IMG/VR virus record: IMGVR_UViG_3300035053_000267
Coordinates: 47,748-111,747 of that record
Length of the DNA stretch: 64,000 nt
Source: a virus
Direction: 5' to 3' (one strand)
This document shows positions 24,554 through 25,042 of this stretch, piece after piece. A program made the translations under genes and the position numbers. The first letter of the stretch is position 1, and every line of letters starts with the position of its first letter. The notes beneath the pieces are model-generated. The model was not told the DNA's origin and did not search any database. It saw nothing but the letters and a program-made list of their open reading frames with translations.

Positions 24554-24586
24554 AAAAAACAGGAGGAGCCATAAGGCTCCTCCTGT
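24554..24586 (-). terminator. intrinsic terminator after the Ubl gene
   Basis: ACAGGAGGAGCC-TTAT-GGCTCCTCCTGT followed by a T run. Confidence 0.85.
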
Positions 24587-24610
24587 CACATGCACAACAG
24601 TCAAACGACC

Positions 24611-25042
24611 TTAGTTGTTGCCTTTGACCTTGGCCGTAATAAGAACAGACGAGTCCTCTTCCAGAACACTTGCTGTGTTGGAAGTCGTAACACCATTTAC
24701 GGAAAGACTGTCACATGAGGAATCAAACTGCACACCCGCTTCATCGAGCGCTCCAGCGACAGTGATGCCGCTTGTAACGGAGATCTGCGCCAGGCGGCCG
24801 GGAACCCGTCCAACCCTGACAACGATGGGGTGCTGGTTGCCCTTGATCCTCCGAGTCAGAATCACCGAATCGCCCTCATCCAGGGAGTCAGAGCTAGAAG
24901 CCGTACAACCATTAAGACGAATTTCATATCCTTCGTCACTGATACCGGACACGGAAAGTGCGTCTGAAACGGTAGCGTCGTCCTCAAGCGCGACGGACTG
25001 AATGGAACCGGGGAATTTACCAATATTTACTGTGATAGGCAT
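24611..25042 (-). CDS. tandem di-ubiquitin-like (beta-grasp x2) protein
   Basis: Two ~70-aa repeats (I.V..G..PG...TV..AL...G...NG...L...D/S.V), each ending KGN; AAGGA RBS. Confidence 0.85.
   Translation of the reverse strand: MPITVNIGKFPGSIQSVALEDDATVSDALSVSGISDEGYEIRLNGCTASSSDSLDEGDSVILTRRIKGNQHPIVVRVGRVPGRLAQISVTSGITVAGALDEAGVQFDSSCDSLSVNGVTTSNTASVLEEDSSVLITAKVKGNN

What the first reader, a model, noticed from the sequence alone, without database searches (positions are those of the whole stretch)
24554..25042. Di-Ubl precursor: both domains end in K-G-N, resembling a polyubiquitin-like pro-protein
Seen: domain 1 ends TRRIKG-N and domain 2 ends TAKVKG-NN. Each has a single Gly masked by Asn, not a free GG. 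The two domains differ in sequence, and the gene has its own RBS and a strong terminator. Known: JAB proteases mature bacterial pro-Ubls by cutting after a Gly. Inference: JAB cuts G|N twice and releases two different Ubls, possibly one for each E2 paralog (two orthogonal tags).
Basis: partly seen in the sequence, partly recalled or inferred. Interest (0 to 1): 0.72.

Follow-up and report, generated by a model that had tools for sequence, protein, structure and literature searches.

The report
Phage two-unit ubiquitin-like precursor gene
A large uncultured phage encodes two different small ubiquitin-like tags joined head to tail, each ending in the same Lys-Gly-Asn tail, next to its own activating enzyme, trimming protease and two carrier-enzyme-like genes; this looks like a viral counterpart of the polyubiquitin gene, but cleavage has not been tested.

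Summary
Window 24611-25042 (minus strand) encodes a 143-aa protein made of two beta-grasp units that are 34% identical. The units end in IKG-N and VKG-NN.

It belongs to a large, unnamed, mostly viral or metagenomic family with at least 453 representative clusters. Members have 1 to 4 tandem units, and every unit ends in [IV]-K-G-N. At 166 internal junctions Gly is kept 165 times and the next residue is Asn 147 times, the same as at true C-termini. In diverged unit pairs, K and G are the most conserved columns. This argues that each junction is a functional processing tail, as in polyubiquitin.

Across related loci, two diverged units go with two E2-like genes, and one unit or several similar units go with one.

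The cut site is open:
- About 40% of family members stop exactly after the Asn, Ala or Gly.
- Almost none stop at the Gly.
- Some members end in KGG.
- The tail aligns with IKGG of archaeal SAMP2.

A cut after Asn69 and Asn142 is therefore at least as likely as a cut after Gly68 and Gly141. No cleavage has been shown. The scan has met this phage poly-Ubl family before in other genomes, and I found no paper describing it.

The parts
24611..25042 (-). di-Ubl gene, 143 aa plus stop: two tandem SAMP2/ThiS-type beta-grasp units
24836..25042 (-). unit 1 (residues 1-69), ending I66-K67-G68-N69
   Evidence: 57% identical to unit 1 of P0002 but 33% to its own unit 2
24836..24847 (-). internal tail IKGN, the candidate processing site (cut after G68 or after N69)
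24614..24835 (-). unit 2 (residues 70-143), ending V139-K140-G141-N142-N143
25049..25054 (-). AAAGGA ribosome-binding site 7 nt upstream of the ATG
   Evidence: read
24558..24587 (-). intrinsic-terminator-like hairpin (13 pairs, 8 GC) followed by a T run, just after the di-Ubl stop
25068..25757 (-). E1-like ThiF-family adenylating enzyme, 229 aa, single domain
   Evidence: Pfam PF00899 3.4e-14
25754..26539 (-). JAB/JAMM metallopeptidase, 261 aa, with E...H-S-H-x7-S-x2-D
   Evidence: PADLOC JAB 8.8e-5; motif read
26523..28220 (-). 565-aa protein with a C-terminal E2(UBC)-like domain (A-P-H-x7-C-F-G)
22741..24507 (-). 588-aa paralog with the same C-terminal E2-like domain, lying downstream of the terminator

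Best explanation
The gene encodes a polyubiquitin-style precursor of two non-identical ubiquitin-like modifiers of the SAMP2/ThiS type.

Proposed mechanism:
- Each unit carries the family's activation tail, [IV]-K-G-N.
- The adjacent JAB metallopeptidase cuts at both tails. This separates unit 1 from unit 2 and removes the C-terminal cap.
- The 229-aa ThiF-like E1 adenylates the exposed C-termini.
- The tags are passed to the Cys of the E2-like C-terminal domains of the 565-aa and 588-aa proteins. The large, unrelated N-terminal parts of these proteins would choose the targets.
- Because the two units have stayed distinct and co-occur with two E2-like paralogs, each unit probably serves one E2-like protein.

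Shown here: the tandem beta-grasp architecture, the family-wide conservation of the internal tail, the gene neighbourhood, and the E2-like fold.

Inferred: cleavage, the thioester relay, the tag-to-E2 pairing and the targets.

The scissile bond is unresolved. I rate N|x as slightly more likely.
For: Family and unit structure:
- There are 453 representative clusters at E<=1e-3. Their lengths fall into groups of 1, 2, 3 and 4 units.
- Internal junctions (n=166): Gly 165; next residue N 147, A 12, G 7. This is the same as at terminal sites, n=139. A second sample gave G 172/172 and internal N 91/91.
- In 29 unit pairs below 45% identity, K and G are identical in 97% and 100% of pairs. These are the top columns.
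- The +1 residue is the same at internal and terminal sites in 150 of 153 cases, against 119 expected.
- AlphaFold2 shows two confident domains with an undefined mutual orientation, pTM 0.54. Fold matches are linear di-ubiquitin and polyubiquitin.
- Some members carry other polypeptides after K-G-N, which suggests a cleavable junction.

Precedent:
- BilC cuts BilA at G97|A98, and BubCD cuts BubAB after G229.

Operon and E2 pairing:
- The operon with JAB, E1 and E2-like genes is conserved in 45 viral contigs.
- The E2-like domain is supported by a model with pLDDT 87.5, by all top 50 Foldseek hits being E2s, and by VIA Z 7.0, rmsd 3.5 A over 120 residues. His and Cys are invariant.
- Pairing pattern: 7 non-redundant loci have two diverged units and 2 E2-like genes. 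10 loci have one unit, or 2-3 similar units, and 1 E2-like gene. There is 1 exception.
Against: - No experiment exists, and I could not model a JAB-Ubl complex.
- Two-domain Ubls that are never cut are known (ISG15, type I BilA, Bub Ubl3).
- The tag-to-E2 correlation may reflect one ancestral duplication. The AU test does not reject a single clade, p 0.30. Blastp pairs the 565-aa protein with the long paralogs and the 588-aa protein with the short ones.
- L002, the closest E1 relative, has one unit but two E2-like genes.
- The second E2-like gene lies beyond a strong terminator.
- E2-fold support is moderate: best Foldseek E 9.7e-3, Z 7.
- A C-terminal Asn would be an unusual E1 substrate.
Confidence: 0.6

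Rival explanations
1. ISG15-like uncut two-domain modifier. Only the C-terminal cap is removed, and the whole 141-142-aa di-domain protein is conjugated through its C-terminus. The internal K-G-N is kept for folding or enzyme docking, not for cleavage.
For: - Multi-beta-grasp bacterial Ubls that act as one piece are documented (type I BilA, Bub Ubl3).
- The fold search also returns ISG15 and FAT10.
- Unit 2 of the L004-type relatives has acquired an insertion of about 15-20 aa, so the units are not interchangeable.
Against: - The internal tail is as conserved as the terminal one, even in pairs below 45% identity, and it co-varies with it.
- Unit number changes freely from 1 to 4.
- AlphaFold2 sees no fixed inter-domain packing, pTM 0.54 with linker pLDDT about 74.
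- From my own knowledge, ISG15 and FAT10 N-domains lack the activation tail.
Confidence: 0.2
2. Same precursor, different chemistry. The conserved Asn is the reactive C-terminal residue of each mature unit, with cuts after N69 and N142. The E1 then activates an Asn carboxylate, which could cyclise to a succinimide as in MccB. The result would be a non-canonical linkage or an E2-independent step.
For: - The profile alignment puts family 'IKGn' on 'IKGG' of Haloferax SAMP2 and 'VSGG' of Pyrococcus SAMP2, so Asn occupies the terminal Gly position.
- Variants end in KGG or KGA.
- 57 of 139 proteins stop exactly at this residue, and only one true case stops at Gly. None of 81 in the second sample stop at Gly.
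- The residue is limited to the small residues N/A/G/S.
- MccB, an E1-fold enzyme, adenylates a C-terminal Asn via a succinimide (PMC12250964).
Against: - Characterised bacterial JABs cut right after the conserved Gly and leave one-residue caps such as Ala98 of BilA.
- A conserved Cys/His E2-like domain argues for an ordinary thioester relay.
- The phase of the next unit relative to the junction is not fixed and gives no help.
- No enzyme assay exists.
Confidence: 0.3
3. Sulfur-carrier role. The units act like ThiS or MoaD as thiocarboxylate carriers for a phage nucleotide or cofactor thiolation pathway, not as protein tags.
For: - Weak ThiS/RnfH/SAMP2-type family hits.
- Some sources name relatives 'sulfur carrier protein ThiS'.
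- The E1 is a minimal ThiF-like enzyme.
Against: - No rhodanese, cysteine desulfurase or thiazole/molybdopterin synthase gene lies in the operon.
- A JAB and Cys-bearing E2-like proteins are always linked.
- The tail is not GG.
- Tandem precursors are not a feature of sulfur carriers (my own knowledge).
Confidence: 0.05

Closest known systems
Eukaryotic polyubiquitin genes (UBB/UBC/UBI4 type)
   Same: Ubl units are joined head to tail, each with the full activation tail. There is a short non-unit cap at the very end, and copy number varies between relatives. The best fold matches are linear di-ubiquitin and polyubiquitin.
   Different: The two units here are only 33-34% identical rather than identical. 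The tail is K-G-N, not R-G-G. The presumed processing enzyme is a JAB metalloprotease encoded next door. The carrier of the gene is a phage.
Archaeal SAMP2 with JAMM1 and UbaA (sampylation)
   Same: SAMP2 is the closest solved sequence relative of the unit (5lda_B E 7.8e-7; Haloferax SAMP2 1.7e-5). The tail 'IKGG' aligns with 'IKGN'. The partners are a single-domain E1 and a JAMM peptidase.
   Different: SAMP2 is a single unit ending in GG, and from my own knowledge no E2 is known for it. Here there are tandem units, Asn at the last tail position, and E2-like proteins.
Bil operons (BilA Ubl, BilB E2, BilC JAB, BilD E1), types I and II
   Same: The same four activities are present. A JAB that pre-processes a capped Ubl after a conserved Gly has been shown experimentally.
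   Different: [quoted passage not shown] Here the E1 is 229 aa with one domain.
- Residues after the BilA Gly are not conserved.
- There are no PADLOC, NCBIfam or PDB-profile matches to Bil parts.
- Bil is a bacterial anti-phage system, whereas this cassette is in a phage.
Bub operons / class 6e 'polyUbl' of Iyer, Burroughs and Aravind 2006
   Same: [quoted passage not shown]
   Different: - Bub has a JAB-E1 or E2-E1 fusion, the DUF6527 protease BubE, and an E2 with Ser or, as first described, an inactive E2.
- Ubl3 works as one piece that forms Ca-dependent filaments.
- None of these features is present here.
PRTRC cassettes / class 6d operons
   Same: There are separate small Ubl, E2-like, JAB and E1 genes on a mobile element. 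Earlier scan notes name this as the closest known system.
   Different: - PRTRC_ThiF scores 38 bits against a cutoff of 144.75, and no other PRTRC model is hit.
- The class 6d E2 lacks the upstream His and uses a downstream one, and its JAB has an N-terminal JAB-N domain.
- Here His lies 8 residues before Cys, and the JAB extension is C-terminal.

Membership tests
Polyubiquitin-type precursor (layout, not homology) | Two or more Ubl units head to tail, each ending in the same activation tail | tested here: met
   IKG-N and VKG-NN. Family-wide, 165 of 166 internal junctions keep Gly.
Polyubiquitin-type precursor (layout, not homology) | Short cap after the last unit | tested here: met
   The cap is N or NN after G141. 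In the family, tails of 1-2 residues occur in 100 of 139 proteins.
Polyubiquitin-type precursor (layout, not homology) | Units identical or nearly identical in protein sequence | tested here: not met
   The two units are 33-34% identical. The family median within a protein is 64%.
Polyubiquitin-type precursor (layout, not homology) | Proteolytic release of single units | not testable with these tools
   This needs a JAB cleavage assay with intact MS.
ThiS/MoaD/SAMP2-type beta-grasp Ubl | Beta-grasp fold and sequence-profile relationship | tested here: met
   AlphaFold2 gives two beta-grasps, pLDDT 91.5. The profile hits SAMP2 at 7.8e-7. PF02597 and PF21965 are recorded on relatives. The window protein itself scores below the Pfam cutoffs.
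ThiS/MoaD/SAMP2-type beta-grasp Ubl | C-terminal Gly-Gly | tested here: not met
   The tail is K-G-N. Asn aligns with the last Gly of SAMP2.
Bil (BilABCD) | [quoted passage not shown] | tested here: not met
   The E1 is 229 aa with one ThiF domain covering residues 19-201. The BilD architecture is taken from PMC10557695.
Bil (BilABCD) | Sequence membership of the Ubl, E2 and JAB | tested here: inconclusive
   No Bil-related hit appeared in PADLOC 2.0, NCBIfam or the PDB profile search. PADLOC gives only generic JAB hits of 20 bits. I could not confirm that dedicated Bil models are in these libraries.
Bub / class 6e polyUbl | JAB-E1 or E2-E1 fusion and the DUF6527 protease BubE | tested here: not met
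   JAB, E1 and E2-like are separate genes. No DUF6527 hit was found among the operon proteins.
PRTRC / class 6d | NCBIfam PRTRC models above their cutoffs | tested here: not met
   TIGR03736 scores 38 bits against a cutoff of 144.75. There are no hits for the Ubl, JAB or E2-like proteins.
PRTRC / class 6d | E2-like without the upstream His; JAB with an N-terminal JAB-N domain | tested here: not met
   An invariant His lies 8 residues before the invariant Cys. The JAB core spans residues 40-135 with a C-terminal extension.
UBC/E2 fold (for the two large neighbours) | E2 fold with a catalytic Cys after an HPN-like motif | tested here: met
   The model has pLDDT 87.5. All top 50 Foldseek hits are E2s, best E 9.7e-3. 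VIA gives Z 7.0, rmsd 3.5 A over 120 residues. The P-H-x7-C motif is invariant. Thioester formation is untested.
ISG15/FAT10-type two-domain Ubl | N-terminal domain lacks the activation tail, and the protein is conjugated as one piece | tested here: not met
   The N-terminal unit keeps the full I-K-G-N tail. Whether the protein is conjugated as one piece is not testable here.

The most novel reading that the evidence does not exclude
A phage makes two orthogonal ubiquitin-like tags from one precursor, each matched to its own giant E2-like enzyme. The mature tags end in Asn rather than Gly. The E1 therefore activates a C-terminal asparagine, a chemistry known only from the microcin C enzyme MccB, and this would give a new type of Ubl linkage or activation route.
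Probability: 0.25. Interest if true: 0.88.

Novelty: new variant of a known kind. Interest (0 to 1): 0.7.

Why it matters
Ubiquitin-like conjugation in prokaryotes has so far been characterised as cellular machinery, mostly as anti-phage defence (CBASS Cap2/3, Bil) or with unknown function (Bub). This case is different in several ways.
- A phage carries the whole kit.
- The tag gene is built like a eukaryotic polyubiquitin gene.
- In this lineage the gene holds two different tags that travel with two E2-like enzymes.

If cleavage and pairing hold, this would be a compact natural example of two orthogonal Ubl pathways sharing one E1 and one protease. It would also make testable what a phage tags during infection. 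The conserved Asn raises a separate chemical question about what E1 enzymes can activate.

The family is large (at least 453 clusters at 50% identity), and the sources that hold it give it no name beyond 'hypothetical' or 'ThiS'.

Tried and rejected
- DNA search of the operon against 50,697 phage records found no match. A tblastn of the di-Ubl also found none. Only distant E1 hits appeared in cultured Xanthomonas, Erwinia and Flavobacterium phages. Their neighbouring small protein ends in GG and is not of the K-G-N family.
- PHROGs gave nothing for the Ubl, JAB or E2-like proteins.
- The 60-sequence alignment was too diverse for a locus scan. A scan with P0005 found nothing.
- I tried to settle G|N against N|x from the phase of the next unit. 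Met1 aligns with +1, +2 or +3 about equally often (23, 26 and 22 cases), so this is uninformative.
- I tried to show that the two cases of two tags with two E2s arose independently. The tree places the 588-aa paralog outside the 'short' clade, but the AU test does not reject joining them, p 0.30, and blastp favours joining. Independence is not claimed.
- The C-terminal domains fused after K-G-N in some relatives are not E2-like and match no Pfam family.
- Five literature searches found no description of a phage poly-Ubl or a K-G-N Ubl family.

Full report
**What is there**

The minus-strand ORF at 24611-25042 encodes 143 aa. Residues 1-69 and 70-143 are homologous, 34% identical with E 3e-12. 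Unit 1 ends R-R-I-K-G68-N69 and unit 2 ends A-K-V-K-G141-N142-N143, read. The internal IKGN is DNA 24836-24847 and the terminal VKGNN is DNA 24614-24628.

An AAAGGA ribosome-binding site lies 7 nt before the ATG. A 13-bp GC-rich hairpin followed by a T run lies at 24587-24558, directly after the stop.

AlphaFold2, run with a 60-sequence alignment, gives two beta-grasp domains (mean pLDDT 91.5). The pTM is low (0.54) and the linker around residues 61-70 is less confident (about 74). This is the picture of beads on a string. The best solved-structure matches are linear di-ubiquitin, ISG15 and polyubiquitin.

**Context**

The window belongs to a 111,747-bp virus record estimated to be 57% complete, so this is a large phage. 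Other genes in view include a 1470-aa RNA-polymerase-like protein and a ribonucleotide-reductase-like protein.

The di-Ubl is the fourth gene of a co-oriented group:
- a 565-aa protein at 26523-28220;
- a JAB/JAMM peptidase at 25754-26539, with the motif E...H-S-H-x7-S-x2-D and a PADLOC JAB hit at 8.8e-5;
- a 229-aa ThiF-family E1 at 25068-25757 (PF00899, 3.4e-14);
- the di-Ubl;
- after the terminator, a 588-aa protein at 22741-24507.

The two large proteins share only a C-terminal domain. Its alignment over 19 phage sequences has invariant His, Cys, Gly, Asp and Gly, with the motif P-H-x7-C-x-G. Its AlphaFold2 model has pLDDT 87.5 and pTM 0.78. The model matches only E2/UBC enzymes among the top 50 Foldseek hits, with a weak best E of 9.7e-3. 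VIA-align gives Z 7.0, rmsd 3.5 A over 120 residues. I accept 'E2-like' with moderate confidence.

**The family**

An exhaustive HMMER search of 1.84 billion representatives found 453 clusters at E<=1e-3 and 127 at E<=1e-10.

I built a unit HMM and applied it to the best 152. It splits them into 18 one-unit, 97 two-unit, 31 three-unit and 6 four-unit proteins. Every unit ends in [IV]-[KR]-G followed by a small residue.

| Site | n | Gly kept | Next residue |
|---|---|---|---|
| Internal junctions | 166 | 165 | N 147, A 12, G 7 |
| Last units | 139 | 138 | N 119, A 11, G 7, none 2 |

A second sample, drawn from the word-indexed collection at 90% clustering, gave Gly 172/172, internal Asn 91/91 and terminal Asn 79/81.

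The opposite is found.

Recent duplication cannot explain this. In the 29 within-protein unit pairs below 45% identity, the K and G columns are identical in 97% and 100% of pairs. These are the highest of all 68 columns, against 10-60% for most others.

The residue after Gly also co-varies. It is the same at internal and terminal sites of one protein in 150 of 153 comparisons (119 expected). All A and G variants agree between sites, as does the K-G-S pair in locus L013. One enzyme set apparently reads both kinds of site.

Some members carry other polypeptides after K-G-N. These include a tail-less beta-grasp plus coiled coil, a 130-180-aa Cys-rich helical domain, and a basic Ala/Lys/Pro tail. 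This again fits a junction that is meant to be cut.

**Precedent**

JAB peptidases of bacterial Ubl systems are shown to pre-process their Ubl. BilC cuts E. aridi BilA between Gly97 and a one-residue cap, Ala98. BubCD cuts the BubAB pre-protein after Gly229 (PMC10557695 and PMC11601596).

Multi-beta-grasp Ubls that are not cut also exist (type I BilA, Bub Ubl3), so architecture alone proves nothing. The argument rests on the conservation of the internal tail.

**Where is the cut?**

- 57 of 139 proteins stop exactly at the residue after Gly and 43 stop one residue later. Of the two listed as stopping at Gly, one is a real K-G end and the other is a K-S-N misalignment. None of 81 in the second sample stops at Gly.
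- Variants end in K-G-G or K-G-A, often as the very last residues.
- The nearest characterised relatives by profile search are archaeal SAMP2 proteins (5lda_B 7.8e-7; Haloferax SAMP2 1.7e-5). In the HMMER alignment, family 'IKGn' lies on SAMP2 'IKGG', so Asn takes the place of the terminal, conjugated Gly.
- The residue is restricted to N/A/G/S, as expected for a residue that must enter narrow E1 and JAB pockets.

Against this, the characterised JABs cut right after the conserved Gly, and a C-terminal Asn is an odd E1 substrate. One E1-fold enzyme, MccB, does adenylate a C-terminal Asn, and the product cyclises to a succinimide (PMC12250964).

The phase of the following unit is variable and does not help.

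I put N|x at about 50-55%, G|N at about 35-40%, and neither at about 10%. For the window protein the alternatives are 1-68 plus 69-141, or 1-69 plus 70-142 with a single-Asn cap.

**Two tags for two E2s?**

I fetched 45 viral contigs through the E1, 8 metagenome contigs through the Ubl, one 3-unit locus and one bacterial MAG chromosome. I scored them with HMMs for the unit and for the E2-like domain.

| Loci | Ubl units | E2-like genes |
|---|---|---|
| Window, L004, L005, L006, L008, L013, L015 | two diverged units, 21-36% identical | 2 |
| L009 | two diverged units | cut off at the 5' end |
| L001, L003, L010, L016, L017, L025, L058, L059 | one unit | 1 |
| L052 | two units, 67% identical | 1 in view |
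| L050 | three similar units | 1 |
| L002 (exception) | one unit plus a 17-aa tail | 2; the second is weak and sits with a second JAB |

Unit types are stable. Window unit 1 is 57% identical to unit 1 of P0002, and unit 2 is 47% identical to unit 2 of P0002. Within each protein the units are 33-39% identical.

A tree places the 588-aa paralog away from the 'short' paralog clade. However, the AU test does not reject joining them, p 0.30. Blastp pairs the 565-aa protein with the long paralogs and the 588-aa protein with the short ones. One ancient duplication, retained together with the two-type precursor, is possible. I rate the pairing at about 45-50%.

**What it is not**

- **Not PRTRC / class 6d.** PRTRC_ThiF scores 38 bits against a cutoff of 144.75, and nothing else is hit. 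The E2-like domain has the upstream His that class 6d lacks, and the JAB has no JAB-N domain.
- **Not Bil.** The E1 is a single 229-aa domain, whereas BilD has a tandem-domain architecture.
- **Not Bub / class 6e 'polyUbl'.** There is no JAB-E1 fusion and no DUF6527.

Sources that hold family members call them 'hypothetical' or 'ThiS'.

**Novelty**

Five literature searches found no description of a phage-encoded poly-Ubl or of the K-G-N family. The scan itself has reported the same kind of phage poly-Ubl cassette in at least seven other genomes. The kind is therefore already known to this scan. What this window adds is:
- the hetero-unit version;
- its link to two E2-like paralogs;
- the family-level statistics;
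- the argument that Asn may be the terminal residue.

**Verdict**

- A polyubiquitin-style precursor of two different Ubls is the best explanation (about 0.6).
- An uncut ISG15-like tag is the main rival (about 0.2).
- The exact cut site and the one-tag-per-E2 rule remain open and can be tested directly with intact MS and charging assays.

This limited neighbourhood sampling to loci reachable through pattern scans.

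Noticed in passing
window 20979-22590 (minus strand): An IS607-type pair lies directly downstream of the 588-aa E2-like gene: a serine recombinase (PF00239, 6e-18) and a TnpB/Cas12f-like protein (PF07282, 7e-21). This is a mobile element inside the phage next to the Ubl cassette.
   Followed up: no
L001:3501-4193, L003, L010, L016, L058 (E1 genes of the single-unit clade): The E1 proteins of this clade end in a strand plus a tail that mimics the Ubl tail...PLIISKGN...PLIVSKGSI...PFIMATGDI...PLMVITGDL. The E1 C-terminus might occupy its own active site or be conjugated itself. 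The window's E1 does not have this tail.
   Followed up: partly
proteins P0094, P0102, P0115, P0123, P0131, P0136, P0144, P0145; P0054, P0059, P0061, P0101, P0116, P0129: These family members carry extra polypeptide after K-G-N. One group has two units followed by a 130-180-aa domain with Cys clusters and a coiled coil. The other has one unit followed by a beta-grasp without the tail plus a helical region. This resembles ubiquitin-fusion precursors. No Pfam or E2-like match was found.
   Followed up: partly
L016:5234-5515: A single-unit Ubl whose K-G-N is followed by a basic Ala/Lys/Pro repeat tail (AAKKPAAKPVKKPASKPAKKPAKK), like a histone-H1-type DNA-binding tail.
   Followed up: no
L002 (IMGVR_UViG_3300023202_000205), 9688-12673: This is the closest E1 relative of the window phage. 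About 3 kb beyond the main cassette it carries a second, divergent E2-like gene (HPHVNSGNVCFG) followed by a second JAB gene. Its Ubl has one unit plus a 17-aa hydrophobic/basic tail after K-G-N.
   Followed up: partly
L018-L046 (gut-metagenome phage contigs, IMG/VR 3300045988 and others): A large clade of phage contigs has the JAB-E1 pair, with E1 about 31% identical to the window's. My HMMs detect no K-G-N Ubl and no E2-like gene nearby, so the tag, if any, is too divergent or sits elsewhere.
   Followed up: partly
L048 (Xanthomonas phage PhiXhv-15, PV764602.1) 2733-7488: This cultured 229-kb jumbo phage has a distant ThiF-like E1, annotated 'thiamine biosynthesis protein'. An 893-aa protein and a 142-aa protein ending ...AKASGG lie upstream. 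This may be a culturable, more distant relative of such cassettes.
   Followed up: partly
L059 (Pseudohongiella sp. MAG chromosome OZ242251.1, 2396697-2409302): A complete single-unit cassette sits in a bacterial chromosome: Ubl ending AKGAKGNS, then E2-like, E1 and JAB. It is presumably a prophage or island, and it hints at marine gammaproteobacterial hosts for part of the family.
   Followed up: no
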